In this document: in pieces, positions 3,689 to 50,134 of the stretch
Numbering within the stretch: position 1 is the first letter of the stretch
Layout of the letters: each line of letters starts with the position of its first letter
IMG/VR virus record: IMGVR_UViG_3300022690_001247
Location: 1 to 53,331 of that record
Strand: one strand, 5' to 3'
Length of the DNA stretch: 53,331 nt
From: a virus
Lineage: Duplodnaviria > Caudoviricetes
Notes under the pieces: model-generated
Told to the model about the DNA's origin: nothing
Databases searched by the model: none
The model's input: the letters and a program-made list of their open reading frames with translations, nothing else
Translations under genes and position numbers: made by a program

Positions 3689-3944
3689 AACTGCCCTCTT
3701 CTATAACTTTAAACCGGCCCGCTGGAACTAAAATACAATCTACTTCAGTTATTCCGATGGGCGTTTCCTGGTGATGGATTATTACGATACATACACTGGA
3801 AAGTGTATCAACTATATATTCTAAATGATATTTGGGTTTAGTGATTTTTATCTCTTCAGATTTTCGAAAAAATAAAGTAATAACTATGATAATAAGTATA
3901 CCTACAGCCGTTAACCATATACCTTTTTCTAAAGTTTGATTCAC
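3675..3944 (-). CDS. Membrane-anchored protein (DUF6440-like)
   Basis: N-terminal TM, then YIVDT..VC...GITEVDC. Confidence 0.5.
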   Translation of the reverse strand: MNQTLEKGIWLTAVGILIIIVITLFFRKSEEIKITKPKYHLEYIVDTLSSVCIVIIHHQETPIGITEVDCILVPAGRFKVIEEGSYVGK

Positions 3945-4264
3945 ATTAACCTCTCATGTTTTGAAACTTGCTCAACTATATACTCCTGGTCTAGCTTAAT
4001 CATTACTCTTCTAAACGAACTCAAAAGTTTTACTCTAAATTTGTATTGAACGTAATTTGGCTGGCTATGGGTGTCTACTAAATTATCTAAGTTTTGAAAA
4101 AATGCGTGTACTGCAATTACTTCAATTAATCTTGCAAACCGGGCGTACCCTGCAATTGTAACCATTCTATCTTCAGGGTTATATTTTAGTACTACTGTCT
4201 CGTCATCTAGTGAGATTTTATATTTTTCTATCATGATTTTAATTCCTTTTCCAGTGTGTTGCAC
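3941..4264 (-). CDS. Hypothetical protein
   Basis: Packed ORF; probable start 4234. Confidence 0.5.
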   Translation of the reverse strand: MQHTGKGIKIMIEKYKISLDDETVVLKYNPEDRMVTIAGYARFARLIEVIAVHAFFQNLDNLVDTHSQPNYVQYKFRVKLLSSFRRVMIKLDQEYIVEQVSKHERLM

Positions 4265-9276: not shown

Positions 9277-9791
9277 GTAAAACTTATTATTTTTTATTTT
9301 ATTGTATTATTGGGGGCAGGGATTTGGATTAGTTTGAGGATGTTGGGTTTAGGTGCTGTGAGACTAACAGAAGTGGCTAAATAAGGGCGAAATAATTGGG
9401 TAAGGGTACTTTGGCCGTCTAAAATAACTTGGCTTTAAATGGCTGTTTCCGTGTCGCTGGAGAAAGGTACTGGTTTTGTAAAAAGTGGTTTTGATGTATC
9501 GACCCGGAGGTCCTATTTTATCAAGAGCGCCGCCTTATTGGAAAATGTGAAATCTTACGAGCCCCTATTTTATCGACTGTTAAATAAATTTTGTATTAAA
9601 ATGTAGGTTTTTTACACTGCCTAAGGGTTGATAGTAGATGGTTATTTAAACATATCGTAGACTATAGATTTTTTTTTAATATATATATGTATAATGTAAT
9701 ATAGTACTGTAAGCTTAGAGGTCGTAATGAACCTTACGTGCGACATTGCAGCATCGCAAAAAAACTGCAAAAAAATAAATTATCTTTACAA

Positions 9792-9820
9792 TTGACAATT
9801 GGAGAAGAATAATGTAGATT
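9792..9820 (+). promoter_or_regulatory. Sigma70-type promoter for the terS operon
   Basis: TTGACA-17 nt-TAGATT, with A-tracts upstream. Confidence 0.65.
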
Positions 9821-9828
9821 AAAAATAT

Positions 9829-10536
9829 ATGATTAGAAAAAAATACACGCCTACTAAAGAAACGCTAAAACAGGCATGGGCATTGAGGGAAGCAGGATTG
9901 TCGATTTCAGAAATCCTAAAAGATTTGAAAATTACGAAAAGTCAATATAACAGCAAGAAATTAATGTTTAAAAATTTCTTCTCAAGAAAACGAGTTGAAT
10001 CTCAGAACGATTATCTGCTTAAAAATGTCTTACAGCCCGACAATTTAGCAAGACCGTTCAAAAAAAATAATTTAGGTAACGAAAAAAAACACGTTCGAGG
10101 AAAGCAAATGGAGCTTACAGATATGAATTTAACTGCCTTACGAGCTTACGTGCTTACAGGATGGACTAAGGATAAGATTGCTAAGGTCTTAGGGATTTCG
10201 ACACAAACCTTACGTAAGTATGCTAATACCTTTCCTATAATTAAGGAAATCCTCGATACTGAGCTAGAAAAGGCAACTTCTCAGGTTATTGAGTCCTTAC
10301 TTAAGGTCTCTAACGGTTACAGAGTTAAGGCTCGTTACTTTGCAGTGAATGACGGTAAGATTATAAGCGAAGAATATATGAAACATATTGGCCCCAGTGT
10401 AAGCGGCCAAAAATATTGGTTAACTAACACAGAACAATGGCGTAACGAGCCCAACGCTTCTTCGGTTAATAATAAAGGATCTATACTTAAGGCTTTGGAT
10501 CATATGAATTTAGATGAGGAAGTCGAAGATGAGTAA
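9829..10536 (+). CDS. terS: Terminase small subunit (two HTH-like domains)
   Basis: HTH (KIAKVLGISTQTL), then VIESLLKVSNGY...KHIGP....KYWLTN...WR as in phage TerS; upstream of terL. Confidence 0.75.
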   Translation: MIRKKYTPTKETLKQAWALREAGLSISEILKDLKITKSQYNSKKLMFKNFFSRKRVESQNDYLLKNVLQPDNLARPFKKNNLGNEKKHVRGKQMELTDMNLTALRAYVLTGWTKDKIAKVLGISTQTLRKYANTFPIIKEILDTELEKATSQVIESLLKVSNGYRVKARYFAVNDGKIISEEYMKHIGPSVSGQKYWLTNTEQWRNEPNASSVNNKGSILKALDHMNLDEEVEDE

Positions 10537-13404: not shown

Positions 13405-14658
13405 ATGGAAGCAATAGTCGAAGAACCACTGCCCTTTAAACCTTTTAAGGAACAGAAGGATTCCTATAGGAAGGCTAAAGCCCGCCTCAATATATGGCAC
13501 GGACCAGTCAGGTCAGGTAAGACGGTCGGGTCTATTAATCCCTGGATTAAGTTCATAGGTACAGCACCTCCGGGGGTCCTCATAATGACCGGCAAGACCA
13601 ACGCCACATTATATCGTAACGTCATAAGAGTAATGGAGGGGTTCCTGGGTGATGAGATGTGGTACGGTATGAGTGAGGATAGCCGTTTAGTCAGGTTATG
13701 GGGTAGGGAGATATTCTGTTTTGGTGCTAACGATGAACGGGCAGAACAGAAGATTAGAGGTTTAACTGTTGCAGGGGCTTACGGTGATGAGGTTACTTTA
13801 TGGCCTGAGTCTTATTTCTCTATGATGTTATCTAGAATGTCAGTTCCAGGGGCTAAGGCTTTTTTAACTACAAACGCAGATCACCCTCAACACTGGTTAA
13901 AAGAACATTACTTAGATAGGATAGACGATTTAGACATGTTAGACTTTACCTGGCCTATCGATGCTAACACTACCTTAGACCCGGACTTCTTACGTAACAT
14001 TAAAAAGGAATATGTAGGTCTCTGGTATAGAAGGTTTATAATGGGTGAGTGGTGTATTGCAGAGGGTGCAGTGTACGATTTTTTTGATGAGAAGATACAT
14101 ACCGGTAGGAGGTTTCCTAATCCAGTGTATCACTTAGCTAGTATAGATTACGGTACTAACAACCCGTTTACATTCGGTTTATACGGTGTTAATAGGGACG
14201 CAGTACCTAAGATCTGGTTAATAGATGAGTATTATTGGGACTCTAAGAAGAAAGGTAGGCAGAAAACAGATAGTGAATATTCACAAGATATTAAGGAGTT
14301 CTTAGATAAGAAAAAAATAAAACCTCGTAAGATATATATAGATCCATCCGCAGCTAGTTTTGAGTTACAATTAAACCGGGATGGGTTTTACGGTGTTGTA
14401 CATGCTGATAATGATGTACTTCCAGGGATACGGACCATGTCTCAAATGCTAAAGAATGGTGAGTATATGTGGAACCGAAGATGTACCAATACAACTACCG
14501 AGGCTTACTCTTATTCATGGGATGAAAAGGCTAGTGCTAAGCTTGGTGAGGATAAGGTTATAAAGTTACATGACCATTGTATGGATAGAGATAGATACAT
14601 GTTACATAGTGAGTTCGGACAGGATCAATTGGATTACTCTAGGTTTAATAAGGTGTGA
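13405..14658 (+). CDS. terL: Terminase large subunit, PBSX family
   Basis: Walker A GPVRSGKT, GAYGDEV Walker B, IDYGTNNP, IDPSAASF, DHCMD nuclease motifs. Confidence 0.95.
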   Translation: MEAIVEEPLPFKPFKEQKDSYRKAKARLNIWHGPVRSGKTVGSINPWIKFIGTAPPGVLIMTGKTNATLYRNVIRVMEGFLGDEMWYGMSEDSRLVRLWGREIFCFGANDERAEQKIRGLTVAGAYGDEVTLWPESYFSMMLSRMSVPGAKAFLTTNADHPQHWLKEHYLDRIDDLDMLDFTWPIDANTTLDPDFLRNIKKEYVGLWYRRFIMGEWCIAEGAVYDFFDEKIHTGRRFPNPVYHLASIDYGTNNPFTFGLYGVNRDAVPKIWLIDEYYWDSKKKGRQKTDSEYSQDIKEFLDKKKIKPRKIYIDPSAASFELQLNRDGFYGVVHADNDVLPGIRTMSQMLKNGEYMWNRRCTNTTTEAYSYSWDEKASAKLGEDKVIKLHDHCMDRDRYMLHSEFGQDQLDYSRFNKV

Positions 14659-14660
14659 TT

Positions 14661-14837
14661 ATGGATAATCAACACAGAAAAATAAAAGGGTACCGGAAAT
14701 TAACCCAGGAAGAGTCTGTAGATGATCTTGCATGGGATTCAATGGTGATAAATTACGAAGAATGGAATTCTGTAAGTATTGATGATATACTAAAGAGTTA
14801 TTCAGATAAAAAAGATGTAGGTAACTATGAAAGATAA
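14661..14837 (+). CDS. Chimeric ORF with an Acb2 (anti-CBASS)-like N-terminus
   Basis: MDNQHRKIKGYRKLTQEE matches the Acb2 N-terminus as I recall it; the remainder is unrelated. Confidence 0.55.
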   Translation: MDNQHRKIKGYRKLTQEESVDDLAWDSMVINYEEWNSVSIDDILKSYSDKKDVGNYER

Positions 14838-16607
14838 ATTACCCAAAAATGATATATACCCTGTGCTTTTAAATACTTATGTAAATATAAAAGAGGTAGG
14901 TGAGGTAGAAAATATTAGATTTTTAAAGTTTGGACTTTTAAATAACAATACAGTAGCTATCATAAGAAGAGAAAATGGTGATATCGAACTTATTGATCCA
15001 AGAAAGTTAAATATGCACTGTTTCGAAGGTAGTTTTACAGAACAAGAGAGGTAATTATGTATAATAAATGTGGAGTTAATAATGAACCACCAACACCTAA
15101 CCAAGATATTAAGACAGTAGGTACCATGGTATATAAGAGTTTTTCTAATATACCATGTGTAGATTTTGAACCTGAGTTTACACAAGTAGGAGATTGTATA
15201 AACTTAGGTGGTATTTTATTTTTTGATAAAAAAACAAGAAAAGAATGGAATTTAAATAACCCCGGTAATTTATAGATGTAATTATGGAAGATAAAACATA
15301 CACAAGAGGATTTAATCCAGATGACATAGTGATAAAGGTAGGTAAGACTGTTCTGGATTGGAAAAATGAAACTTTATCTGAGGCAATGAATAGAGAGCTT
15401 AAAAGGATAGAGGATGAAGAGATAAAAAATGAATAACTTAGAGTTCGATATATTAAAAGTAATAGCTTTAAGGTACCCTTATTCCTATGAACAAATAAAG
15501 TTATTATATAATAGGTTACATTCGTATGATGAATTAATTTTTGCTATTGAATTAAGTATTGTAACTGCAATGGATTTAAACAGTGTTAAGGTTGGTGATA
15601 CAGAATCATGAAAAGACAACCTAGTACAGTTAAAAAGATACGTGAGGATTTACTTAGTGGGTTAAAATCACATGGATGTACCAAAATAAAGTTAAAAGAA
15701 GTGTTCATCTCAGATTTTGTGTATGAGATTAACTATGAAGCATTTCTTCCAGGAAAAATTCATCAAATAACAATACAAAACTCCTTAAAAAATAATGACT
15801 AAAATAAGACAACCTAGTAAATTAATACCGTTATCTGAAATACTGGATAAAGAGACGGTGGCATATAAAAAAGCCATTGAATCCATTAGGAAATGTGGTA
15901 AGACAATGCAGGATTTAAAGATACCTGCCGAAAAAGCTTCAAAAGCTTTAAATGATTATTACAATGCCGTTGGAAATAAGGATACTTATGACTAAAGAGA
16001 AGGGAAGACAAATAGTTACTGCAATGGAAAGAACAATGACTGAATTACGAGAACTTGGTGTAGACGTTCTTAAAGTAATATTTGATCCAACTCAGAATGA
16101 GAGTATACTTGATGACGGGTTAATGTTGACTGTAACATCAAGAGAAAACGGAAGAGTACATGACATGTATATAAGAGGAATTTCATATTAAAATTATTAT
16201 GACTAGAGAAAAAGGAAGATGTATAGTAGCAGCAATGTTTTATTTAAAAGAACTGTTAATAGAAGAAGGATATATGGATATGGAATTACAATACAGCCCC
16301 AAAAACAACATTGATGTATCTACTGGGTTTTTTAATATTGATGTTACAGGTGTTGATAAAACTATGGTTATAGCTTTGGTGATTGAAAATGATTAACTTA
16401 GTTTGTAAGGCAGTACTTGTAGTAGTATTCTTTTGGATTACGACTGTTATGGGTAATAGAGAATCGAATTTTAATGATTATTTATTTTTATTAGTATGCT
16501 CTCCTTTTTTATACTTACCTGCTGCATACTTATTATTCATGTCTTCCCAGAGTAACCAATTAAAACGTTTTGAATATGAACAAAATAAAATACAGGAAAT
16601 AAAATAA
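14827..16607 (+). other. Cluster of about 9 small ORFs between terL and portal (14827-15054, 15057-15275, 15284-15436, 15429-15611, 15608-15802, 15795-15995, 15988-16191, 16199-16396, 16383-16607)
   Basis: Overlapping start/stop packing; the last ORF has two TM segments. Confidence 0.65.
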
Positions 16608-18262
16608 TGCCAGTAAATAGAATAAAAAATACGATTGACTTACTACATGTTGGTTCGAATGGGTCAACTAATATACGTACTGATGGATGGTCTAATGTAT
16701 TCAGTAGACAAGGTATACAAGGTAAGGATAGGTATGTAGACGATACTTTTATAGCCGATAGATCCTTTACTGAAACTACATTAGATTCTATATATAGATC
16801 AGCAGGTTTTGGAAAAAGGATTATAGACTTACCTAATGAAGCCATGGTTCGGGATTGGTTTAGAGTAACCTCCGATACTGATGAAGATGTAAATGCCTAT
16901 CTAATGGGGATTAAGGCCAAACCTGCCATACTAACAGGTTTAAAATGGGCTGATATATTTGGAGGCTCTGTTGTACTTGTAGGTGCAGATGATGGAGCCC
17001 AGTTTTTAGAGGAGCCATTAAATGAAGATAATATACGGTCAATAGAATTTTTACGTCCATACGACAGATTTCAAGTTACCTGGAATACTGTAGATTTATT
17101 TACAGATCCTAAAGATCCTAGATTTGGAACACCTGAATTTTTCAAGATAACACCTAGCAGAATGACGGAGTTTAGAGTGCATGTATCTAGGTTGTTATTT
17201 TTTGAAGGTGAAGCAGTTTCCGATAGGCGGCGTGAAATAAACAATGGTTGGGGTGACTCAAAATACCAATCAACGTTTAGACAATTATCAGATTTAGGTG
17301 GTGTTCATCATGCGACTAGACAGATAGTAGAGGATTTTGTTCAGACTATTATACAAATTGATAATCTTCAAGATTTATTATTGAATGGTCAGGAACAGTT
17401 AATAAAAGATAGAATAAATCTTATGGATTTATCCAGACATGTACTAAACGCTGTTGTATTAGATACAAAGGAACAATATTCAAAACAAGCTTCATCTATT
17501 GCAGGGGTGAGTGATGTTATTAAAGATTTTGGAATGGCTCTAGCAGCGGTTACATCGATACCTTTTTCCTTATTGATGGGAAGAACCCCGGCTGGATTAA
17601 ATTCAGCAGGTGAAGGTGAAGAGGACCAGTGGTTTAACCATGTTAGTGATTTACAAGAGTCCAAACTACTAACACCGATGACACGACTGGTAGAGTTGGT
17701 CGAACTAACACAAGACGCTGAAGTACAATTAGAGGAGGGCTGGAAAATCGAGTTTAATCCATTGACTACACCAGATCCTAAAACAGTAGCTGAAACCAGA
17801 AAAATAATAGCTGACACTGACGCTGTATATGTATCTAATAATATATTACTACCTGAAGAAGTTAGAGAATCCAGATTCGGGGGTACGGATTTTTCTCCAG
17901 AGACTGCAATTGAAGCCGCGAACACTGCAAGGTTGTTAGAAGGTGAGGAAGCGCCAGAACCAGGTACTCAAAACGAGGATGCCTTTGTATTTTTACAAAC
18001 ATCAATAAAAAATAGACATGATCATATAGTGTTCGAACTAGATGAGGACGGCAATGGTGTAACTGATGTAGGTGGAGAAGATAACCATACCCATAGTGTT
18101 GTAGGAGGTATTATAGGGGTAGGTGGTACAGATTCACCTCATATACATATACTATTAGGATTTGAAAAACAGTTTTTTGAAAACGATAGTAGTCACCCAG
18201 TAAGGAGAAAAAAGAAAAAGAAAACCAGAAAAAGGAAAAGAATATTACCAAGATTACGATAA
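16607..18262 (+). CDS. Portal protein (DUF1073 family) with a His-rich and basic C-terminal extension
   Basis: DGWSN, RIIDLP..M.R.W, FGGS, VHVSRL, GWGDS, LMGRTPAGLNS, WKIEFNPL, PEEVR..RF. Confidence 0.92.
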   Translation: MPVNRIKNTIDLLHVGSNGSTNIRTDGWSNVFSRQGIQGKDRYVDDTFIADRSFTETTLDSIYRSAGFGKRIIDLPNEAMVRDWFRVTSDTDEDVNAYLMGIKAKPAILTGLKWADIFGGSVVLVGADDGAQFLEEPLNEDNIRSIEFLRPYDRFQVTWNTVDLFTDPKDPRFGTPEFFKITPSRMTEFRVHVSRLLFFEGEAVSDRRREINNGWGDSKYQSTFRQLSDLGGVHHATRQIVEDFVQTIIQIDNLQDLLLNGQEQLIKDRINLMDLSRHVLNAVVLDTKEQYSKQASSIAGVSDVIKDFGMALAAVTSIPFSLLMGRTPAGLNSAGEGEEDQWFNHVSDLQESKLLTPMTRLVELVELTQDAEVQLEEGWKIEFNPLTTPDPKTVAETRKIIADTDAVYVSNNILLPEEVRESRFGGTDFSPETAIEAANTARLLEGEEAPEPGTQNEDAFVFLQTSIKNRHDHIVFELDEDGNGVTDVGGEDNHTHSVVGGIIGVGGTDSPHIHILLGFEKQFFENDSSHPVRRKKKKKTRKRKRILPRLR

Positions 18263-19033: not shown

Positions 19034-19571
19034 AGGGCACTAACTTCGTTATCTGTATTACCCTTGCAACTTGTATAGGTCTTATAGTCGGCAGTTTTTG
19101 GATGTATTATGTATTGAATAAGGTATGCGGGTAATATGATGGTATCAAGAGTAACAACAAGAGATATAGATTATAACGAGTATAACTCTGACTTATATAC
19201 TTCAAAACAAGATGAATCTGACAGCATAGCTAGACATTATGAGAATGATTCACTAAAATTTACAGAAATTATTTCTATAATATCAGGTCTTATGTTACTA
19301 TTCTTTTTAGGTATATTTTTTACTGGTTTAATATGGATAAGTTATGTCAATAAATAAATTACATGTATCTAAGACACATCATGTTAGTGAGATCCATTGG
19401 GCTACTAGTGCTATACATATGGTATCATTAACTAGTGTTATTGAAACAACTGATGAGTTATGTTCAGGTGACGGATCATTATTTTTATCAATAGTGTTCA
19501 TGACATTAATAATTTTTAGGAATTTTTGTATTGGGTATGTTGTTATAGAGGCTCTACAATTATGTCAATAA
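19018..19571 (+). other. Three small TM proteins (19018-19134, 19136-19357, 19344-19571)
   Basis: Each has a hydrophobic helix; coupled starts and stops. Confidence 0.5.
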
Positions 19572-20440
19572 ATGATGCATTAGAGGACGCGGCTTTTCGT
19601 CTCAGAATGAGGAGAGCCAATAGTAAGATTAGAAAAATCCCGCTTAAATCTAAACGAGTTTTGAAAACGTTATTCCCTATACCGTTAGAGATTGCCTACG
19701 AGAAACAACTGTTAGGACTTGTAGCTGTAATGTCGGCTATAGTAGAGAAGATTACTTTTCCAGCGATTCCGTTATTTATAGAAACTAGAAATATTAATAT
19801 TCCTCCTGATGCTAGGGTGGACCAATGGCCGGAAGACATTGACAGGACAATGGAGACTGTCAGGTTAAATACTGAAGCTGTTAACCTTGATGAGGCAGCT
19901 TTAGTGTTATTAGTAGGTACTGGTGTCAATGCCTGGAACAAAACTCAATGGGATAAAGTAGTTAGTGGTTTCTTTGGGGTAACACCGTTTCAGCCTGAAT
20001 TTTGGTTAAATGATACTTTAGACAGTTTCGTCAGGGAAAATACACAATTAATAAGGAAAATGTCAGATGACTATATCAGAGACGTTCAGGGAATCATCCA
20101 GCGAGGAGTCCGGGGAGGTGAGTCTACCAGTACGATTGCCAGAAGAATCCAAAAAGCAACTGGTACGACTAGAAACAGAGCAAAACTTATTGCCGTTGAC
20201 CAAGTCGGAAAACTCAATGGACAGCTCACAGAACTCCGACAAACTGGTTTAGGTGTTCAAGAATATATCTGGAGAGATAAGAGGGACACCAAAGTAAGGC
20301 CTACTCACAGAAGGAATAACGGAAAAAAATTTAGATGGGATAGTCCACCTAGCACTGGCCACCCCGGTCAAGAAGTACATTGTAGGTGTAGTGCTGAGCC
20401 AGTTTTTGATGAAGTTGTTGAGTTTTTACAGGCGGCATAA
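19562..20440 (+). CDS. Head morphogenesis protein (SPP1 gp7 / Mu F-like)
   Basis: RAKLIAVDQVGKLNG, YIW...D.KVRPTH, HPGQEVHCRC. Confidence 0.92.
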   Translation: MSINDALEDAAFRLRMRRANSKIRKIPLKSKRVLKTLFPIPLEIAYEKQLLGLVAVMSAIVEKITFPAIPLFIETRNINIPPDARVDQWPEDIDRTMETVRLNTEAVNLDEAALVLLVGTGVNAWNKTQWDKVVSGFFGVTPFQPEFWLNDTLDSFVRENTQLIRKMSDDYIRDVQGIIQRGVRGGESTSTIARRIQKATGTTRNRAKLIAVDQVGKLNGQLTELRQTGLGVQEYIWRDKRDTKVRPTHRRNNGKKFRWDSPPSTGHPGQEVHCRCSAEPVFDEVVEFLQAA

Positions 20441-20604
20441 TGAAAATAGGTGATGAAATACTAGCCATAGATAAAGAAATTATGAATTTATCAACTAAAA
20501 AATACACCGGAACAGTGGTGATAACATTGAATATGAGCCAAGGTGGTATTACAAAAATGCACCTAAATTATAATCGGGAAATAAAAAAGAAAGATTTGTC
20601 TTGA
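20440..20604 (+). CDS. 54-aa small protein (DUF2292/YezD-like?), missed by the ORF track
   Basis: MKIGDEILAIDKEIMNLSTKKYTGTVVITLNMSQGGITKMHLNYNREIKKKDLS; TAATG coupling to gp7. Confidence 0.55.
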   Translation: MKIGDEILAIDKEIMNLSTKKYTGTVVITLNMSQGGITKMHLNYNREIKKKDLS

Positions 20605-20629
20605 TTTTTTAAAAAATATTTAGTAAGTT
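20601..20629 (+). promoter_or_regulatory. Possible promoter upstream of the structured leader
   Basis: TTGATT-17 nt-TAAGTT. Confidence 0.4.
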
Positions 20630-20679
20630 AAATTTACATAGGTTACTGTAAAGTCTGTCCTGACCAGGATAATTACTTT

Positions 20680-20749
20680 AAAGTCCTGCACTAGTTACTT
20701 CCCAGTTGCTCAAACTCTTGGGAAAGTCTTCTAGTGCAGGACTTTTTTT
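20680..20749 (+). terminator. Long intrinsic terminator / attenuator hairpin
   Basis: Perfect 15-bp inverted repeat AAAGTCCTGCACTAG / CTAGTGCAGGACTTT with an inner stem, ending in a T7 run. Confidence 0.75.
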
Positions 20750-20759
20750 ATGGAGAAAA

Positions 20760-21278
20760 ATGAGTGATACCAGAGATTTAAAGAACAGGTTATTTCAAGC
20801 TCTAAGTATTAATGGTGATGGTAGTGGTATTATCGACGCTGTAGGGGACTTCCAATCTGGAACGACTGAATTTTTTATACAGCCACCAGCCGATGAAGTC
20901 TTTCATATCAGGAACTTTTTACTGTACCTTGTAGATAACAGTAACCTAAAACAGACAAAATATGGAGCAAATTTAACACTAACTAACGGGATTGATGTTA
21001 AAGTATCAGGTGACGATACTCCTCCTACAGTACTCAATCCGTTTCCTATTAAAGTAAATACAGATTGGGGAATATTTGTACCGGATATGACGACTATCGA
21101 TTTTGATGGTGGTGGATCTAAGGCACTCGTAGCTAAAAGAGACTTATCTGAAGATTCTGTTTTTACTTTGCAGGGAGCTAAAAGTGAAAGATTTTCTATT
21201 TGTTTAAGTGATAATTTTACAGGGTTAACACACCAGTTCTTTATAGTTTCTGGCAGGAAAGAAGTTATAAGCAATTAA
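20760..21278 (+). CDS. Beta-rich putative virion protein (paralog A)
   Basis: GGAG SD gives the start MSDTRD at 20760; TEFFIQPPADEVF motif. Confidence 0.6.
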   Translation: MSDTRDLKNRLFQALSINGDGSGIIDAVGDFQSGTTEFFIQPPADEVFHIRNFLLYLVDNSNLKQTKYGANLTLTNGIDVKVSGDDTPPTVLNPFPIKVNTDWGIFVPDMTTIDFDGGGSKALVAKRDLSEDSVFTLQGAKSERFSICLSDNFTGLTHQFFIVSGRKEVISN

Positions 21279-21286
21279 GGGAATAT

Positions 21287-21862
21287 ATGGGAAGACCAAT
21301 AAACTATATAGATGCCCCTAGAGAGTTTTCACAACATTTAACTACTAGTGGTAGTCCTACTGGGTCATTTAATCAAGCTATTGACAATACAGGAATATCA
21401 ACGGAATTTAGAATAATCACGCCTAGTGACGAGATACTAGAAGTAAAAAGTATTACTTTAGAAATTATGAACGCTACAGGTGGTATTGTTAATGACGGGT
21501 ACATGAACTTGCCTTCCAGTGGTTTTGCAGGTGGCACGAGAATAAGTGGTCTAGTATCTAGGGCAACCCTTCCGTCTGGAACTAAAATACATTTATTTGG
21601 TGCATCTGATAACGTTGTGATATTGTCAGACTGGAAAAGATTCATGAATATTGAGATATTCAAAGAAGATGCGTCTGGTCCTAGTGTTGTATTAGGTCAA
21701 AGAGATTTTGATCCTCCAATATACTTAGACGGATCAAAAGGTGATATTATGAAATTTGTATTTTTTGAATATGATTTTAGCGGCTTTCTAAAACATGAAA
21801 TGTTTTTACGAGGTATTCGTTACAGTCTTAAAAATGAATTTTTACCTAATCCGATTTCTTAA
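21287..21862 (+). CDS. Beta-rich putative virion protein (paralog B)
   Basis: TEFRIITPSDEIL, SDW, LDGSKGD, DFSG..H.M parallel the preceding ORF. Confidence 0.6.
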   Translation: MGRPINYIDAPREFSQHLTTSGSPTGSFNQAIDNTGISTEFRIITPSDEILEVKSITLEIMNATGGIVNDGYMNLPSSGFAGGTRISGLVSRATLPSGTKIHLFGASDNVVILSDWKRFMNIEIFKEDASGPSVVLGQRDFDPPIYLDGSKGDIMKFVFFEYDFSGFLKHEMFLRGIRYSLKNEFLPNPIS

Positions 21863-21878
21863 TACTTGAGATGATATA

Positions 21879-23042
21879 ATGGAAAAAATAATACGCTGGG
21901 ATACAATAACAATAGATAAATCCAGGTCTGTTAAAACTAGTGAAGGATTTATAAAAACTGATGCTGTAGTAACCAGAACAGGAATCTTTCTTTATTCTAA
22001 TAATGATGGGACTATAAGAAAAGAACTCAGGCATCCTGATGATGTTTTTAAATCTGATAGTTTGAAGACTATGGATAATATTCCGGTAACTTTAACTCAC
22101 CCCAAAGAAAGAGTAGTTACTTCAGATAATTCAAAAGATGTTTCAGTAGGATCTACTGGAGAAAATGCCAGGCCTGATGGGTTAGGTGTAAGGATGTCCT
22201 TAGTCATTAGGGACAAGAACGCTGTGGACTCTGTAGAATCTGGCAAAACTACTGAATTGTCATTAGGGTATAGTTTGAATTTAGATGAAACCCCTGGAGT
22301 ATATGAAAATCAAAATTTTGATGCTCGTCAAACAGATATAGAATATAATCATTTAGCTTTAGTTGAAAGGGGTAGGGCTGGAAATATTGCAAAGATAGTC
22401 TTGGATCGTAACGATGGATTTCAAGTTGATGAAGAACCTAAACCTAAACAAAAATCAAAACAGGAGAAAGATAAAATGCCTAACATTAACATAGATAATA
22501 TTAACTATGAGGCTGCTCAGGAAGTCATCAACTCACATAATAAGTTGAAGACCCAAGTTGATTCCCTTAAACCAGAATTAACTACAGCAAAAACAGCCAA
22601 TACGGAAATGCAAGCTAAACTAGATACTGCACTCGCAGAAGTCAAAACTCTTAAAGAAAAAAATAATGATGAGGAAATCAGGAAAGGTGTTGAGGCAAAA
22701 ATGTCTTTAATTGTTAAAGCTACTCCGTATCTCGATGAAGAAACCATTAAGAAGATTGATACTATGTCTAATAAAGAAATACAGATTGCAGCAATTAAAT
22801 CAGTTACTAAGGACGCTGTGTTAGATGAAAAAGACGATGTATATATAACAGCCAGGTTTGATGCCGTTGTTGAAATGGTTGATCCAAAAACCGATAGTAT
22901 GTCCAGTATTAGAAAGACTATCAATACTAAGTCGGATGACCCTAGAGATAAAAATCATGTTGATTCTAAGGATGCTCGTAAGAAATATATAGACAACCTT
23001 GTAGATCGTCATAAGACTGGTGTAAATAAAGGAGGCAAATAA
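21879..23042 (+). CDS. Prohead protease/scaffold, DUF2213 family
   Basis: EGFI...VTRTGIF.Y, PVT..HP, ELSLGY, YNHLALV..GRAG; coiled-coil C-terminus. Confidence 0.92.
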   Translation: MEKIIRWDTITIDKSRSVKTSEGFIKTDAVVTRTGIFLYSNNDGTIRKELRHPDDVFKSDSLKTMDNIPVTLTHPKERVVTSDNSKDVSVGSTGENARPDGLGVRMSLVIRDKNAVDSVESGKTTELSLGYSLNLDETPGVYENQNFDARQTDIEYNHLALVERGRAGNIAKIVLDRNDGFQVDEEPKPKQKSKQEKDKMPNINIDNINYEAAQEVINSHNKLKTQVDSLKPELTTAKTANTEMQAKLDTALAEVKTLKEKNNDEEIRKGVEAKMSLIVKATPYLDEETIKKIDTMSNKEIQIAAIKSVTKDAVLDEKDDVYITARFDAVVEMVDPKTDSMSSIRKTINTKSDDPRDKNHVDSKDARKKYIDNLVDRHKTGVNKGGK

Positions 23043-23515
23043 TGTCACAAACATCTGTAAATAGGAATTTTGATCAAGCTTTTCCAGGGATGTTAGGTGA
23101 CATACGCCCTAATACTGTAGAAAGCTTTCTTGCAGAGGGTTCTGTAAGATTTGGTATAGGTCTGTCTGCTGGAACTGATGTTGATAGGCAGGTTATAGAG
23201 TCGGCATTGGTAGGAGATAAATTTAGAGGTATTGCACTACACCAACATGTTGAACAGGCTATTACTACAGGTGTTTCTCAGTATGATGACAAAGAGGCTG
23301 TGTCCGTACTTAGAAAAGGTACTGTGTGGATGCCGGTTGAGGACAGTCAAAAGGCTATAATAGCTGTAGATGACCCGGCATTTATAGAAGTTGTAATAGG
23401 GGCCCCGGAACGAGGTAAAGTTACTGGAGTATCTGCAAGTAACTTAGCAACTGGTGGTACTGTCAGAAAAGTAGATGTCGGTTTGGCTCTTGCTTTAATT
23501 GAAATTGATCTTTAA
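23042..23515 (+). CDS. Capsid decoration/cement protein
   Basis: AFPGMLGD, FGIGL, VSVLRKGTVW; lies between protease and MCP. Confidence 0.8.
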   Translation: MSQTSVNRNFDQAFPGMLGDIRPNTVESFLAEGSVRFGIGLSAGTDVDRQVIESALVGDKFRGIALHQHVEQAITTGVSQYDDKEAVSVLRKGTVWMPVEDSQKAIIAVDDPAFIEVVIGAPERGKVTGVSASNLATGGTVRKVDVGLALALIEIDL

Positions 23516-23541
23516 CACCCTAATAATGGAGAAAAAATAAA

Positions 23542-24486
23542 ATGCAATATTACAATTTAGATGCAAATGAATCAGAGTTCTTCCAAAGGGAATTAGAGTT
23601 CATCAAATCACAAACTTATGATATTTTATATCCTGAGTTGAAAGCAACACTTCTGATTCCAGTGTCCACAGAGGCTGGCGCAGGTGCAACCACTATCACA
23701 TATCGTCAATTTGACGGTGTTGGTATTATGAAAATTATAGCTAACTATGCTGATGATTTACCCAGAGCAGATGTAAAAGGAAAAGAGTTTTCAAGTATTG
23801 TGCAAACACTTGGTGGTTCTTATGGTTTTAATGTACTGGAAGTTCGCCAGGCTGCTATGGCTGGAAGGCCATTAAATGCACGTAGAGCTTCTACTGTGGC
23901 TAGAGCAAACGAGCAGAAGGTAAATAGTATTGCCTGGTTTGGTGATGCTACTTCTGGATTATTAGGTATGTTAGATCAGCCCAATGTACCCGCTGCTACA
24001 GTTCAAACCGGGGCAACTTCTGGAAATGTTACGTGGGGAGGTGGATCACCTAAAAATCCTGATGAGATTATCAAGGACTTATGTGATGTTATAGATGATG
24101 TAAGGGAATTGACACAAGGTATTGAAAACCCGAATACTGTTTTGATACCTATCGCTCAAAATTCACTTATATCATGTACACCAAGAAGCACAACTTCCGA
24201 CACTACTATTAAACAATTTTTTATGAACAATAGACCTGGTGTGGAAATTGTAGAAGTAGTGGAGTTAAAAGACGTTGACCCGCTGCCTTCTGGCGGAGGT
24301 GCTCCAAAGGATGTAATGATTGCTTATGATAAAAGTCCTGATAAATTGACTTTAGAAATTCCTTCTCCTTTTGAACAATTCCCTCCACAAGAAAGAGGTT
24401 TGGAATTTATAGTCCCAGCGATGAGTAGAATAGGTGGAGTAATAGTTTATTACCCTTTATCAATAAACATAGTTGAAGGCATTTAA
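23542..24486 (+). CDS. Major capsid protein, DUF2184 family
   Basis: FFQRELE.I, LIPV, ADDLPRADV, AWFGD...GLLG, GGVIVYYP. Confidence 0.92.
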   Translation: MQYYNLDANESEFFQRELEFIKSQTYDILYPELKATLLIPVSTEAGAGATTITYRQFDGVGIMKIIANYADDLPRADVKGKEFSSIVQTLGGSYGFNVLEVRQAAMAGRPLNARRASTVARANEQKVNSIAWFGDATSGLLGMLDQPNVPAATVQTGATSGNVTWGGGSPKNPDEIIKDLCDVIDDVRELTQGIENPNTVLIPIAQNSLISCTPRSTTSDTTIKQFFMNNRPGVEIVEVVELKDVDPLPSGGGAPKDVMIAYDKSPDKLTLEIPSPFEQFPPQERGLEFIVPAMSRIGGVIVYYPLSINIVEGI

Positions 24487-26781: not shown

Positions 26782-28089
26782 ATGTCTACTACAGATGGAA
26801 TAGTTACTGTCAATATATCGACTGCTGGTCCTAGTATCAGCCGTGTCGGTTTCAGTACTATAAATGTTTTTGGAACGAATAAAGCCTTTTCAACATTATC
26901 AAAGAGGTTTGCTAACAATACAGAAGTCTTGTCTTTATTTCTTTCGACTGACCCTGAAGCTATTGCTGCTTCTGATATTTTTGCACAGAATCCTACAGTT
27001 CCGGATATACTTATTTCTAGAAGGGCTACTTCTGATGTAACTACTATTACAGTAAAAACCCCTGCTATAGATAATATAGATTATACATGTACTATAGACG
27101 GAACTGTTTTTACATTTAATTCTGGAGGAAGTGCTACAGAAGATACAATTGCAGTCGGTCTTGTAGCAGCTATTGAAGCCGGTAGTGGAGTTGTAACTGC
27201 TTCTGGTGCTGCTAGTCCATATACATTGACTGCTGATGCCAGTGGTGTAGCGTACTCAGTTAAAGTTGACGCAAACCAATCATCGGCTTTTACAACTATT
27301 GACACAAATGCAAATGACCTGGCAAATATTGATGAAGAAGATGATGACTGGTACGGTCTGGTTGCCACAAGTAGGGTAGAGCAGGATCAGTTAGATGTAG
27401 CTTCTTGGGTTGAAGGTGAGTTGAAATTTTTTGCCACCGCAAGTGATGACACTGATATACCTGATACTACAGATGCAGCCGACACAACTACACTTGCTGC
27501 TCAGTTTAAAGCTTTATCTTATCGAAGGACAGAACTTATATACCATACAAAAGCTTCAACGGAGTTTATCGATGCGGCGAATCTTGGTAAAATATTGCCT
27601 CTTGATCCTGGTTCATATACTAAGAAGTTTAAAAATCTTGCTAGTGTTACGGTAGATAAGTTATCAACTTCTCAAAAGACCAACATAACTGCTAAAAATG
27701 CAAATCATTATACAACTGTCGCAGGATTAAATATTCTTAGAGAAGGTGTCGTTTCAGTAGGGGAGTTTATAGATGTGATAATATTTGTAGACTGGTTACA
27801 AGTAAGAATGGAAGAAAGAATATTTGTAACACTTACTAACACACCCAAAGTTCCATTTACCGATCCAGGTATTGCTGCGATAGAAGCTGATATAGTTGCC
27901 CAATTACAGGACGGTGTTGCAGTAGGTGGACTTGCAGCAGACCCCCCATTTACGGTAACCGTGCCTCTTGCTGCTGATATAAGTGCTGTGGATAAAGCTG
28001 CCAGGATACTTAATATACCTGATGCCTTCCAGGGGACATTGGCCGGGGCCATTCATTTTGTAACTATTAACGGAAATCTAGTAAAATAA
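26782..28089 (+). CDS. Tail sheath protein, DUF3383 family
   Basis: DWY, PGSYT.KFK.L, GEFIDVI..DWL, KVPFTD.GI, LAGAIH. Confidence 0.92.
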   Translation: MSTTDGIVTVNISTAGPSISRVGFSTINVFGTNKAFSTLSKRFANNTEVLSLFLSTDPEAIAASDIFAQNPTVPDILISRRATSDVTTITVKTPAIDNIDYTCTIDGTVFTFNSGGSATEDTIAVGLVAAIEAGSGVVTASGAASPYTLTADASGVAYSVKVDANQSSAFTTIDTNANDLANIDEEDDDWYGLVATSRVEQDQLDVASWVEGELKFFATASDDTDIPDTTDAADTTTLAAQFKALSYRRTELIYHTKASTEFIDAANLGKILPLDPGSYTKKFKNLASVTVDKLSTSQKTNITAKNANHYTTVAGLNILREGVVSVGEFIDVIIFVDWLQVRMEERIFVTLTNTPKVPFTDPGIAAIEADIVAQLQDGVAVGGLAADPPFTVTVPLAADISAVDKAARILNIPDAFQGTLAGAIHFVTINGNLVK

Positions 28090-42228: not shown

Positions 42229-42271
42229 CGTGGTAGTTAATACATTTCTTGAAAAAAAGATATAAAAACGG

Positions 42272-42299
42272 TTGACAAAAACAATAATCTTGGTACATT
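42272..42299 (+). promoter_or_regulatory. Sigma70-type promoter for the replication operon
   Basis: TTGACA-16 nt-TACATT with a TGn extended -10. Confidence 0.65.
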
Positions 42300-42306
42300 A
42301 TTTAGA

Positions 42307-46943: not shown

Positions 46944-47786
46944 ATGACAAGTTCTTTAAAAGATAAATTAAAAAATTTAGACAATGATTTTTCAGATGTA
47001 CAAGAAAAATTTGGTTCAGATACCGGTAACGGATACCCTATACTTGAGGGTGGTGATTATATAGTTGATAACATCACTGCAAAGCTGATAGAAAATACCG
47101 AAGGTACTCTAATGGTAATTAGAGGTATGACGATTCTTGAAGGTGACTTATCTGGAGAAACCGGGTCTGATATTATGAATCTTGGTTCAGAACGTGGCCC
47201 TGAGTTTTTATTAAAATGGTTAAATTTTATGGGTTACACTATAACCACATTGTCCGATGATCTAGAAGACACCCTGGAGGCAATCACTAATAATACTTCA
47301 GCAACTGCTAAAGTTCACGTAAAACAATCTGATGACCATAAGTACAATAACTTTTATTTTAATTCTTTAGAGGATACAGGTAACGTGGATGATAGTCAAG
47401 ATATTCCTGTAAAAGAATCAGAATCTAGTGAGTTAGACGATATGAATATGCCGGAACTAAAAGAATATATTAAGGAGCACAAATTAAGTATTCGAATTAA
47501 AGCAACCACTAAAAAGCCTGATCTTATAAAAAGAATACAAGCGGCTCAACAAAACGGAACACCTGTTGTGCAACAAAAGGCCACAAGAAAAAAAGCTGAC
47601 ACAAATGGAACTTTTAGGGGTTTAAAAACCTTGTGTGAGGAGTTCCAATTTAAAACTGAGGGTATAGATGACTTGGAAGGTATAAAGACATTCTTAAAAT
47701 CCTATACCTTTAGTCCAGATGAACTCAGTACTCAAGAAACTGAATTACTTGAATCGGCTGGTCTTGAAAAACTGATAACTGGTTGA
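46944..47786 (+). CDS. ssDNA-binding protein (DUF669-like) with an acidic linker and HeH-like domain
   Basis: LEGGDY.V, ILEG..G, YNN.Y; follows Sak4; LDDMNMPELK...KKPDLI. Confidence 0.6.
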   Translation: MTSSLKDKLKNLDNDFSDVQEKFGSDTGNGYPILEGGDYIVDNITAKLIENTEGTLMVIRGMTILEGDLSGETGSDIMNLGSERGPEFLLKWLNFMGYTITTLSDDLEDTLEAITNNTSATAKVHVKQSDDHKYNNFYFNSLEDTGNVDDSQDIPVKESESSELDDMNMPELKEYIKEHKLSIRIKATTKKPDLIKRIQAAQQNGTPVVQQKATRKKADTNGTFRGLKTLCEEFQFKTEGIDDLEGIKTFLKSYTFSPDELSTQETELLESAGLEKLITG

Positions 47787-47829
47787 TGTTTACGTGACTC
47801 TATATGTTACTTTCTCACCACCAACACCG

Positions 47830-47869
47830 GGCAGCGTGGGACAAAGCCCAATACCTCCGCGCTGCCTTT
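47830..47869 (+). terminator. GC-rich stem-loop, possible terminator
   Basis: GGCAGCGTGG / CCGCGCTGCC 10-bp stem (one G-U), then TTT. Confidence 0.5.
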
Positions 47870-47874
47870 AAATA

Positions 47875-48117
47875 ATGGAAATAAATAAAATGAACACTAA
47901 CCTTTGGGCTAACTTTATTAAATGTCATTTTACAAAAATCCAATTAGATGTTATTATAGTAAGACGAAAAAATAAAACTCGGTTACAAACGGCATTTATT
48001 TTAAATGTTAGTGATGCAAATGTAAAATTCCACACTAGAAATATATTACAAAAATCAGGGATGAAAAGAATGGATGCGTTTTTTAATGTGTATGGTGACT
48101 TAGTAGATAAGTTATGA
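47875..48117 (+). CDS. LuxR/GerE-type HTH protein
   Basis: FT..Q.DV.......TA..LNVS..NVKFH..NI.QK.G. Confidence 0.75.
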   Translation: MEINKMNTNLWANFIKCHFTKIQLDVIIVRRKNKTRLQTAFILNVSDANVKFHTRNILQKSGMKRMDAFFNVYGDLVDKL

Positions 48118-50031: not shown

Positions 50032-50117
50032 GGAAGGTTATTTGTCTTTCCACGCTCTCCTTCCTCACAGGAAGACAGGGGTCCCCTATCAGCCTTAAAA
50101 CTCGGTTCCTGTCTTCC
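50028..50117 (+). other. Tandem large-loop hairpins after polA
   Basis: GTGAGGAAGG/CCTTCCTCAC and GGAAGACAGG/CCTGTCTTCC perfect 10-bp stems, 1 nt apart. Confidence 0.65.
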
Positions 50118-50134
50118 ACTTCTGTATTATAACT

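What the first reader, a model, noticed from the sequence alone, without database searches (positions are those of the whole stretch)
20440..20762. Small protein plus switchable RNA leader gating the head/tail operon: candidate phage antitermination system
Seen: a 54-aa ORF missing from the track (…KYTGTVVITLNMSQGGITK…) ends in a possible promoter and is followed by a structured leader of about 120 nt. Hairpin 1 is TAAAGT..TCCT-GACC-AGGA..ACTTTA (20649-20680). It abuts a terminator with a perfect 15-bp stem (20680-20745) and T run, directly before the SD/ATG of the first head-region gene. The leader contains AAAGTC, TCCTG and CAGGA twice each, so CAGGA(20665) can pair with TCCTG(20684) in the terminator's 5' arm, an alternative fold. 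Inference: a strong terminator in front of about 21 kb of virion genes implies regulated readthrough, and the adjacent YezD/DUF2292-like mini-protein is the obvious trans factor.
Basis: partly seen in the sequence, partly recalled or inferred. Interest (0 to 1): 0.75.

Follow-up and report, generated by a model that had tools for sequence, protein, structure and literature searches.

The report
Terminator gate before phage capsid genes
A very strong transcription stop signal, accompanied by a tiny conserved protein gene, sits directly in front of the capsid-assembly genes of this sediment phage and its relatives, so capsid production must depend on reading through it; how that happens is unproven.

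Summary
The 54-aa ORF (20440-20604), hairpin 1 (20649-20680), a 15-bp-stem hairpin (20680-20745) with a T7 run, and the SD/ATG at 20752/20760 are all there. This hairpin is by far the strongest terminator-like site in the 53-kb complete phage genome.

The layout is conserved. Of 16 Mu-F-like loci with an adjacent homolog of the small ORF, 13 carry a terminator ending 95-150 nt after its stop. Of 67 F-like loci without it, 15 have any such site within 300 nt. Six lineages have a near-consensus sigma-70 promoter between the small ORF and the terminator. In five loci the head protease/scaffold gene follows directly. Read-through is therefore obligatory for capsid expression.

- The proposed alternative fold has pair probability about 1e-8.
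- No antiterminator pairing, leader motif or Rfam family is conserved.
- The window's own promoter is weak.
- The YezD/DUF2292 link is borderline only.
- Nothing shows that the small protein is the trans factor.
- Terminase, portal and minor head genes lie upstream of the gate.

Verdict: a lambda pR'-tR'-like late gate with an unknown factor, a new variant of a known kind. Interest is moderate.

The parts
19526..20440 (+). Mu-F-like minor head (head morphogenesis) gene, last large gene of the terminase-portal-F block. The start codon is uncertain.
   Evidence: PHROG 324 at E 4.4e-66. Pfam Phage_Mu_F at E 8.7e-22.
20440..20604 (+). 54-aa small basic protein. Predicted helix 3-19 plus beta-hairpin 25-30/40-45, with the conserved loop motif NM(N/S)QGGI. 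Its ATG overlaps the stop of the F-like gene (TAATG).
   Evidence: Three homologs at E <= 1e-3 besides the query itself among 1.84 billion representatives. 14 family members, none with Pfam. AF2 model at pLDDT 75.6. pI 9.4.
20601..20629 (+). Candidate weak sigma-70-type promoter: TTGATT, 17 nt, TAAGTT. The spacer holds the T6A6 palindrome 20605-20616.
   Evidence: Read from sequence. Not listed by the tool's scan at 9 of 12 or better. Same geometry in L010 (TTGCTT-17-TAAGTT) and L024 (TTGCTT-17-TAGATT). Near-consensus promoters at the same relative place in six lineages.
20649..20680 (+). Hairpin 1: outer stem 6 bp, inner stem 6 bp, loop GACC.
   Evidence: -8.1 kcal/mol. The WIN pre-terminator leader has z = -1.76 against shuffles.
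20680..20749 (+). Intrinsic-terminator-like element: a 66-nt hairpin with a perfect 15-bp outer stem and a branched top, then a T7 run (20743-20749).
   Evidence: -33.4 kcal/mol. Stem pair probabilities 0.96-1.0 for 13 of 15 pairs. Strongest such site in the genome.
20752..20762 (+). Shine-Dalgarno GGAG and the ATG of the next gene. No room for a promoter after the T run.
   Evidence: Sequence.
20760..21862 (+). Two tandem paralogous genes of unknown function (172 aa at 20760-21278, 191 aa at 21287-21862). They are the first genes behind the terminator.
   Evidence: No PHROG or Pfam family. Paralogy at E 4e-6. Homolog behind the cassette in L011 at E 5e-15.
21879..24486 (+). Capsid-assembly genes behind the gate: DUF2213 head protease/scaffold (21879-23042), a virion protein (23042-23515) and the Mu-T-like major head protein (23542-24486). 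About 18 kb of further virion genes follow.
   Evidence: PHROG 530, 563, 264. Pfam DUF2213 at E 2.9e-42. ORF map. Tail sheath at 26782-28089.

Best explanation
The 155-nt spacer 20605-20759 is an operon-boundary cassette conserved in one deep clade of phages with Mu-like heads. It holds a promoter (weak in this phage, near-consensus in relatives), a short leader of about 45-60 nt, a very strong intrinsic terminator, and then at once the ribosome-binding site of the first gene of the capsid-assembly operon.

The terminator ends transcription arriving from the terminase-portal-F-small-ORF block. It should also truncate most transcripts started at the cassette's own promoter. Expression of protease/scaffold, major head and tail genes therefore requires read-through.

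I think this is most likely a factor-dependent late gate that works like lambda pR'-6S-tR', not an RNA switch. The co-inherited 54-aa basic protein encoded immediately upstream is the best, but unproven, candidate for the factor. It could act on RNA polymerase or on the hairpin.

Shown: the anatomy, its conservation, and its linkage to the small ORF. Inferred: that the promoter fires, that the hairpin terminates, that read-through is regulated, and who regulates it.
For: Anatomy:
- Searches give the structures and coordinates.
- It is the only strong hairpin-plus-T-run in the 53-kb genome.
- The T run ends 10 nt before the ATG, so no promoter fits after it.

Linkage to the small ORF:
- 13 of 16 F-like loci with an adjacent small-ORF homolog have a terminator-like site ending 95-150 nt after its stop. 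15 of 67 without it have any within 300 nt. Fisher p = 2e-5.
- With near-duplicates merged, 10 of 13 against 14 of 61, p = 4e-4. With strict criteria, 10 of 13 against 4 of 61, p = 3e-7.

Promoter:
- Promoters scoring 9.5 or more (12 hexamer positions plus bonuses) with 17-nt spacers start 4-21 nt after the stop in L011, L030/34/38, L032, L042, L048 and L072. The -10 end lies 48-67 nt before the terminator.
- The window's TAAGTT ends 51 nt before its terminator.

Downstream gene: DUF2213 protease/scaffold in 5 of 6 locus genes scanned (the window's own protease was a seventh query).

Natural variant: L035, in the same F clade, lacks the small-ORF family and has a promoter but no terminator.

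Other contexts: outside phage heads, the small ORF is also followed by a hairpin plus terminator in L012, L014/L016, L019 and L021-23.

Mu comparison: Mu has a terminator and late promoter P_I at the homologous F/G-I boundary, as annotated in the record.

Protein properties: the family is basic, with pI at least 8.9 in 12 of 14 members.

No alternative candidate found: no Q-type antiterminator family is present in the genome.
Against: - No expression data exist. No RNA run holds the sequence.
- The window's own promoter is weak and was not picked up by the consensus scan. A mononucleotide-shuffle test gives no significant promoter for WIN, L010, L018, L025/26, L027, L043 or L080.
- On the F-protein tree, 14 of 15 small-ORF rows fall in one group. 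The F-context linkage is therefore largely one inherited state, not many independent events.
- Counter-examples: L043 has the small ORF and no cassette. L027 has a hairpin without a T run. L011 has a weak T run. Three DGR loci have the small ORF directly before a reverse transcriptase with no terminator behind it.
- No shared leader motif that could be a binding site.
- The fold of the small protein matches nothing informative: Foldseek gives no hit at E <= 0.001, and the best VIA Z is 4.4.
- A leaky terminator would explain the anatomy without any factor.
Confidence: 0.4

Rival explanations
1. Passive operon-end terminator. The hairpin simply ends the terminase-portal-F-small-ORF transcript (or, elsewhere, the small gene's own transcript). 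Capsid genes are made from constitutive partial read-through, with or without the embedded promoter. The small protein has an unrelated role, for example in head assembly or another nucleic-acid transaction.
For: - Mu has a plain terminator at the same boundary.
- Some F-like loci without the small ORF have simple terminators right after F: L033, L061, L075.
- Outside phage heads the small ORF is followed by a terminator with no promoter in between (L012, L016, L019, L021-23).
- The small protein exists without the cassette in L043 and in DGR loci.
- The F-context linkage is mostly one clade.
Against: - With the T run 5-25 nt from the start codon of the essential protease/scaffold gene, a strong terminator (U7-U10, -14 to -33 kcal/mol) would throttle the most highly needed virion proteins.
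- The promoter sits upstream, not downstream, of the terminator in six lineages. That is the opposite of Mu and makes no sense for simple insulation.
- The architecture is kept while the non-coding sequence has diverged completely.
Confidence: 0.3
2. A discrete small RNA gene. Promoter to terminator gives an abundant RNA of about 85-115 nt with a function of its own (regulatory, or even structural in head assembly). The downstream gene uses whatever reads through.
For: - Near-consensus promoters are followed 48-67 nt later by a strong terminator in six lineages.
- The window region folds with z = -4.9.
- From memory, not checked here: lambda's pR' makes the 6S RNA in the same way.
Against: - No conserved sequence or covarying structure beyond a generic terminator.
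- No Rfam family: at E <= 10, and at gathering score over 18 loci.
- The leader before the terminator is short and weakly structured.
- No RNA data.
Confidence: 0.12
3. RNA processing or stability element. The long hairpin is an RNase III-type site or protective stem-loop at the junction of two messages, as between T7 genes (T7 arrangement recalled from memory, not checked here). The U-rich tract serves as a translational enhancer for the next gene.
For: - The window's hairpin is 66 nt with a branched top, far longer than a minimal terminator. L080 has a similar 68-nt one.
- Other long-stem hairpins without T runs sit in intergenic gaps at 47786-47876 and 50031-50136.
Against: - In most relatives the hairpin is a short, canonical terminator stem with an A-tract before it and U7-U10 after it.
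- The U run is the most conserved feature of the leaders.
Confidence: 0.08
4. One reading: a switchable leader in which hairpin 1 and the terminator compete through CAGGA/TCCTG pairing, with the mini-protein choosing the fold.
For: The complementary pentamers exist. In nascent-RNA folds, 8 nt of the terminator's 5' arm pair upstream before the 3' arm is made.
Against: - Pair probability is about 1e-8.
- The forced alternative gives -36.3 against -47.1 kcal/mol.
- The window's leader/arm duplex has z = -0.96, and 18 loci range from -2.1 to +1.2 with no trend.
Confidence: 0.03

Closest known systems
Lambdoid late-gene gate: Q gene, pR' promoter, 6S leader RNA, tR' terminator
   Same: A regulator-sized gene lies directly upstream. 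A host-type promoter follows, then a short leader that ends in a strong intrinsic terminator, then the virion genes. Late expression needs read-through.
   Different: - No Q-family protein is present: PF06530 and PF03589 give no match at E <= 1 in six frames.
- The candidate factor is 54 aa.
- Terminase, portal and the minor head gene lie upstream of the gate, not behind it.
- The window's promoter is weak.
- A promoter-proximal pause element was not established.
Phage Mu F/G-I boundary: terminator of the lys transcript plus C-dependent late promoter P_I (record AF083977 as annotated; abstract of PMC2582627 seen in the listing)
   Same: The same position in a homologous head module: portal, then F, then a small gene, then the boundary, then protease/scaffold, then major head. 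It holds both a terminator and a promoter.
   Different: - In Mu the order is terminator (17908-17953) then promoter (17977-18043). Here and in six related lineages the promoter comes first and the terminator abuts the RBS.
- Mu G is 156 aa, taken from its coordinates. It was not compared with the 54-aa protein.
- The related promoters have good -35 boxes, unlike C-dependent ones (abstract of PMC2582627).
conAn bipartite antitermination of conjugative plasmids (PMC8191782; abstract and section 18 read)
   Same: A protein gene and the RNA region directly downstream of it act together, in cis, to carry RNA polymerase through terminators of a long operon.
   Different: - conAn2 is a large RNA element within a 383-bp intergenic region and itself exerts antitermination. 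Here the leader is short and shows no conserved structure.
- The context is a plasmid conjugation operon, not a phage.
DUF2292 / YezD small proteins (Pfam PF10055), function unknown
   Same: Similar size and similar predicted layout, an N-terminal helix followed by a beta-hairpin. One distant relative of the window's protein (L023) scores 16.2 bits, E 0.0078, over model positions 3-33 of 37.
   Different: - The window's protein and 12 other family members scanned give no hit at E <= 10. The six-frame search of the genome is also empty.
- hhalign of the 14-member family against 30 Geobacterales-order DUF2292 proteins gives probability 0.3%.
- The hairpin loop is longer and carries its own motif.

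Membership tests
Intrinsic (Rho-independent) terminator | Stable G+C-containing stem-loop immediately followed by a U run of about 7 or more | tested here: met
   15-bp stem at -33.4 kcal/mol, then T7 at 20743-20749. Strongest such site in the genome.
Intrinsic (Rho-independent) terminator | Releases transcripts in vitro or in vivo | not testable with these tools
   No RNA run holds the sequence.
Lambda-type Q antitermination gate | Promoter followed within about 200 nt by a terminator, upstream of late genes | tested here: inconclusive
   Met in six related lineages with promoters scoring 9.5 or more. In the window only a 7-of-12 candidate exists.
Lambda-type Q antitermination gate | Q-family protein (Pfam PF06530 or PF03589) | tested here: not met
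   No six-frame match at E <= 1 in the complete genome. PF06323 was not searched.
Lambda-type Q antitermination gate | Sigma-70-dependent promoter-proximal pause element and a Q-binding site | not tested
   Only looked at by eye. -10-like hexamers follow the promoter in some loci (a second TATAAT in L072, TAGGTT in the window and L030; sequences), but not in all.
Terminator/antiterminator RNA switch (attenuator or riboswitch type) | Alternative helix that sequesters the terminator's 5' arm, conserved among relatives | tested here: not met
   Pair probability about 1e-8. Duplex z-scores range from -2.1 to +1.2 over 18 loci.
Any Rfam family | Covariance-model match | tested here: not met
   Window 19500-21500 at E <= 10 gives only chance-level hits, best 22 bits against a 74-bit threshold. 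In 18 related loci nothing falls on the leaders at gathering score.
DUF2292 / YezD (PF10055) | Pfam HMM score at or above 22 bits | tested here: not met
   No hit for the window's protein at E <= 1 or E <= 10. None in six frames. The relative L023 scores 16.2 bits, and 9 other proteins in that call give none.
DUF2292 / YezD (PF10055) | Profile-profile similarity | tested here: not met
   hhalign probability 0.3%, with 7 aligned columns. The DUF2292 profile came from one bacterial order only, so it is of low diversity.
Mu-type late boundary (terminator then C-activated promoter) | Terminator upstream of the promoter, and a promoter lacking a -35 box | tested here: not met
   The order is reversed, and relatives have good -35 boxes. 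A Mor/C-like activator was not searched for.
conAn bipartite antitermination | ConAn1 homolog plus a large downstream RNA element | not tested
   No ConAn1 sequence was at hand. The resemblance is positional only.

The most novel reading that the evidence does not exclude
The roughly 55-aa basic helix-plus-hairpin protein is a new, minimal kind of terminator-directed regulator that travels with its target. It would form a two-part protein-plus-terminator gate used by a deep clade of Mu-like-head phages to time capsid synthesis. The same gate would be reused in front of ParB-methylase and other genes, behind Moco riboswitches in Geobacterales-type genomes, and, next to a long hairpin, in diversity-generating retroelements.
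Probability: 0.18. Interest if true: 0.8.

Novelty: new variant of a known kind. Interest (0 to 1): 0.55.

Why it matters
Late-gene timing is understood for few phage types: lambda Q, Mu C, T4 sigma factors. Here an uncultivated but widespread lineage keeps a promoter-terminator-RBS cassette at the packaging/capsid boundary across very deep divergence, together with an unannotated mini-protein family.

If the protein proves to drive read-through, it would be among the smallest antitermination factors known. It would also be a compact, portable gene-expression gate. The same protein's presence in DGRs and behind Moco riboswitches would point to a general nucleic-acid-handling role.

If read-through is passive, the finding is an ordinary, if unusually placed, terminator.

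Tried and rejected
- Expression data: no RNA holder is listed for the stretch.
- Close relatives in public runs: contigs from four runs of a second study were laid on the region and cover it at roughly 89-95% identity. The table of differences was cut off at 20474, so no covariation in the hairpin could be read. Only a T run one base shorter in one run was visible.
- Phage collection: blastn of 19500-23100 against the annotated phage collection gave no match.
- Locus searches with single proteins: the 54-aa and 172-aa proteins found nothing. Alignments were needed.
- Fold of the small protein: Foldseek against PDB gave nothing at E <= 0.001. The VIA wide search gave a best Z of 4.4, common helix-hairpin pieces of baseplate proteins and MinE. 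A PDB sequence profile search gave only chance-level hits. ESM Atlas gave unnamed viral clusters at 0.84-0.86, below the level to trust.
- Leader motif search: the best 7-mers are T-run words and reach no more lineages than shuffles do.
- Literature:
  - 'DUF2292/YezD' gave no functional paper.
  - The Mu terminator search found no paper on the lys terminator in the library.
  - The DGR survey's CH1 accessory protein is 160-169 aa and so is not this protein. Its supplementary tables, which list the minor candidates PAG1-4, could not be seen and might hold the DGR-linked small ORF.
- Earlier notes of this scan hold nothing on this genome or protein.
- A pI table for additional locus-derived proteins was not made, so pI is reported for the 14 stored family members only.
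- Complex prediction was not used, because no protein-protein claim is made.
Full report
WHAT THE WINDOW IS

The window is a complete 53,331-bp virus record with direct terminal repeats. The runs that hold it are marine-sediment metagenomes. It looks like a virulent myovirus with a Mu-like head module.

Genes on the + strand run in this order:
- terminase small-subunit-like gene, 9829-10536
- terminase large subunit, 13405-14658
- portal, 16607-18262
- an unknown 250-aa gene
- Mu-F-like minor head gene, 19526-20440
- the flagged 54-aa ORF
- the flagged spacer
- two unknown paralogous genes
- DUF2213 head protease/scaffold, 21879-23042
- major head protein, 23542-24486
- tail sheath, 26782-28089
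- further virion genes up to about 42 kb
- helicase, DNA polymerase and primase genes

The terminator therefore lies inside the morphogenesis block. It separates a packaging/portal part from a capsid-assembly/tail part. It does not stand in front of all head genes.

THE OBSERVATION

All described features are present.

ORF and its junction:
- The ORF is 20440-20604.
- Its ATG shares one base with the stop of the F-like gene (TAATG).

Hairpins and the following start:
- Hairpin 1 (20649-20680) folds at -8.1 kcal/mol.
- The large hairpin (20680-20745) has a perfect 15-bp outer stem and a branched top, at -33.4 kcal/mol.
- T7 (20743-20749), GGAG (20752-20755) and ATG (20760) follow.

How unusual it is:
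- The region is far more stable than shuffles: z = -4.9, with 0 of 200 shuffles as good.
- In my own scan of both strands it is the strongest hairpin-plus-T-run in the genome, at -32.5. The other 14 sites score -9.1 to -18.2.
- The element is unique in the genome.

The repeated words exist. AAAGTC in fact occurs three times.

THE PROPOSED RNA SWITCH

The CAGGA/TCCTG helix has an equilibrium pair probability of about 1e-8. Enforcing it gives -36.3 against -47.1 kcal/mol for the minimum-energy fold.

Across 18 loci with the same layout, the best duplex between the leader and the terminator's 5' arm is no better than with shuffled leaders. Z-scores run from -2.1 to +1.2, and the window scores -0.96.

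The leader segment before the terminator is only mildly structured. Mean z is -0.8 over 10 lineages, and the window scores -1.76.

No 7-mer is shared by more leaders than in shuffles, apart from T-run words.

Rfam gives nothing:
- chance-level hits only at E <= 10
- nothing on the leaders of 18 loci at gathering score

I therefore reject a riboswitch-like or attenuator-like fold switch.

THE SMALL PROTEIN

It is a real, rare family.

How it was found:
- HMMER over 1.84 billion representatives found three relatives at E <= 1e-3, besides the query itself.
- A profile search found 14 proteins of 48-65 aa, none with a Pfam domain.

Properties:
- The hallmark is FTGK-hydrophobic strand-NM(N/S)QGGIG-strand.
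- AlphaFold predicts helix 3-19 and a beta-hairpin at 25-30/40-45, with pLDDT 75.6.
- No informative structural or PDB sequence match was found.
- Twelve of 14 members have pI 8.9 or higher.

- no hit for the window's protein at E <= 1 or E <= 10
- no hit for 12 other members scanned
- no hit in six frames of the genome
- hhalign against 30 DUF2292 proteins from one bacterial order gives probability 0.3%

One distant relative (L023) scores 16.2 bits, E 0.0078, over nearly the whole 37-position model. A remote relationship is possible but not shown. It would say nothing about function, since DUF2292 has none assigned and the literature search found no functional paper.

COMPARATIVE ANATOMY

I collected 80 further Mu-F-like loci from viral contigs (which reports 524 confirmed relatives of which the best 80 were kept). 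To these I added the earlier ones, and I searched their ORFs with the family HMM.

Sixteen loci, the window included, have a family member directly after the F-like gene. They reduce to 13 lineages after merging near-duplicates.

Terminator linkage:
- In 13 of the 16, a hairpin-plus-T-run ends 95-150 nt after the small ORF's stop.
- Of 67 loci without an adjacent small ORF, 15 have any such site within 300 nt, at scattered distances.
- Fisher p = 2e-5.
- By lineage, 10 of 13 against 14 of 61, p = 4e-4.
- With stricter criteria, 10 of 13 against 4 of 61, p = 3e-7.

Exceptions:
- L011 has a hairpin with a weak T run.
- L027 has a hairpin with no T run.
- L043 has no spacer at all.

Two more cases were seen by eye:
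- L024 has the small ORF one gene further on, with the full cassette.
- L100 has a divergent small ORF that the HMM missed, with a terminator directly before the protease gene.

L035 belongs to the same F clade. It has an unrelated 56-aa ORF and a good promoter, but no terminator.

Promoter and downstream gene:
- Between the small ORF and the terminator, six lineages (L011, L030/34/38, L032, L042, L048, L072) carry promoters scoring 9.5 or more, on 12 hexamer positions plus bonuses.
- These promoters have 17-nt spacers and start 4-21 nt after the stop. Their -10 box ends 48-67 nt before the terminator stem.
- The window has only TTGATT-17-TAAGTT. Its -10 ends 51 nt before the terminator. L010 (TTGCTT-17-TAAGTT) and L024 (TTGCTT-17-TAGATT) have look-alikes in the same place.
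- After the T run the next start codon follows within about 5-25 nt in most loci.
- In L030, L032, L042, L048 and L100 that gene is the DUF2213 protease/scaffold. L024's partial gene gave no family.

HOW INDEPENDENT IS THE LINKAGE?

On a quick maximum-likelihood tree of 74 F-like proteins, 14 of 15 small-ORF rows fall in one 16-row group (SH-aLRT 81). L080 lies elsewhere, and the minimum is four changes. L024 was left out of the tree for lack of filled columns.

Within phage heads the linkage is thus mostly one old inherited state. It has been kept over terminal branches of 0.4-0.9 changes per site while the spacer sequence has been completely replaced. That argues for selection on the layout. 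It does not prove that protein and terminator work together.

Independent contexts add some weight. The small ORF is followed 42-57 nt later by a hairpin and terminator in these places:
- a short metagenome contig (L012)
- in front of a ParB-N/methylase gene (L014/L016)
- in front of a PKD-domain gene (L019)
- three Geobacter/Pelobacter-type genome bins (L021-23)

No promoter lies between them there.

In three DGR loci (L015, L017, L020) the small ORF sits directly before the reverse transcriptase with no terminator behind it. A roughly 110-nt hairpin with a T run lies directly in front of it.

MECHANISM

One step follows directly from the sequence. No promoter can fit between the T run and the start codon. 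The capsid-assembly genes can therefore only be transcribed by polymerases that pass the terminator.

Whether passage is passive leakage or induced is not shown. I favour induced, factor-dependent read-through, for three reasons:
- The promoter is placed before, not after, the terminator. This is the reverse of Mu at the homologous boundary, where the record annotates a terminator at 17908-17953 and P_I at 17977-18043.
- The promoters in relatives are near-consensus and so probably constitutive.
- The terminators are strong, while the genes behind them are the most heavily needed.

This is the logic of lambda's pR'-tR' gate, which I cite from general knowledge.

The genome has no Q-family gene. 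The only sigma-region-4-like match is a weak HTH in the terminase-small-subunit-like gene. The small basic protein, always next door, is the obvious candidate. The only evidence for that is synteny.

A published precedent for a protein gene acting in cis with the RNA just downstream of it is the conAn system of conjugative plasmids (PMC8191782; abstract and section 18 read). It is an analogy, not a tested relationship.

Earlier notes of this scan describe promoter-leader-terminator arrangements before capsid operons in other phages and satellites. I did not check them and use them only as context.

VERDICT

It is wrong or unproven in its particulars: the RNA switch, the strength of the promoter, the YezD identity, and the idea that it gates all head genes.

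I rate it a new variant of a known kind of late-gene control, with a previously unannotated protein family attached.

Noticed in passing
L021:3747-3864 and L023:3740-3858 (small ORFs start near 3956 and 3977); L022:4321-4411: In two Geobacter/Pelobacter-type genome bins, a Moco/tungsten riboswitch aptamer (RF01055, 63 and 62 bits) lies directly upstream of the small-ORF homolog, which is then followed by a hairpin and terminator. In a third bin a c-di-GMP-I riboswitch lies behind that terminator, before a DUF3466 gene. This suggests that this branch of the family is tied to molybdenum/tungsten cofactor status.
   Followed up: partly
L015, L017, L020: small ORF 3926-4111, reverse transcriptase from about 4108-4122: The small-ORF family also occurs inside diversity-generating retroelements. 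It sits between a roughly 110-nt hairpin with a T run and the reverse transcriptase, downstream of an Mtd-like target gene (L020:1983-3065). It is not one of the named DGR accessory genes: CH1 is 160-169 aa.
   Followed up: partly
window 20760-21278 and 21287-21862: Two tandem paralogous genes (21% identity, E 4e-6) with no PHROG or Pfam family lie between the terminator and the head protease gene. L011 has one copy in the same place (E 5e-15). Most relatives have none.
   Followed up: partly
window 47786-47876 and 50031-50136: Two further long perfect-stem hairpins (12-bp stems, -25 and -29 kcal/mol for the gaps) sit in intergenic gaps of the replication module, without a proper T run.
   Followed up: no
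window 14655-16607: About 2 kb between the terminase large subunit and the portal gene is filled with ten ORFs of 49-102 aa, two of them on the minus strand (14877-15327). This is unusual inside a packaging module.
   Followed up: no
window 20605-20616; L024 spacer after 4482: A T6A6 palindrome forms the spacer of the candidate promoter right after the small ORF's stop. L024 has T6A8 in the same place.
   Followed up: no
window 19900-21300, runs X3-X6: Contigs of 12-53 kb from four runs of a second marine-sediment study carry a relative roughly 89-95% identical over this stretch, including the hairpin. A 99-nt segment (20824-20922) of the first downstream gene is diverged beyond alignment in two of them, and one has the T run one base shorter.
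   Followed up: partly
window about 9780-9815 and 42265-42300: Good TTGACA-type promoters (TTGACA-17-TAGATT before the terminase-small-like gene, TTGACA-16-TACATT before the helicase gene) suggest the host uses standard sigma-70 promoters (read by eye).
   Followed up: no
G023, G038, G062 and other genomes of the order searched: Bona fide DUF2292 genes are common in this bacterial order: 29 of 61 genomes, often 2-4 copies a few kb apart. None of the 19 DUF2292 loci scanned has a riboswitch.
   Followed up: no
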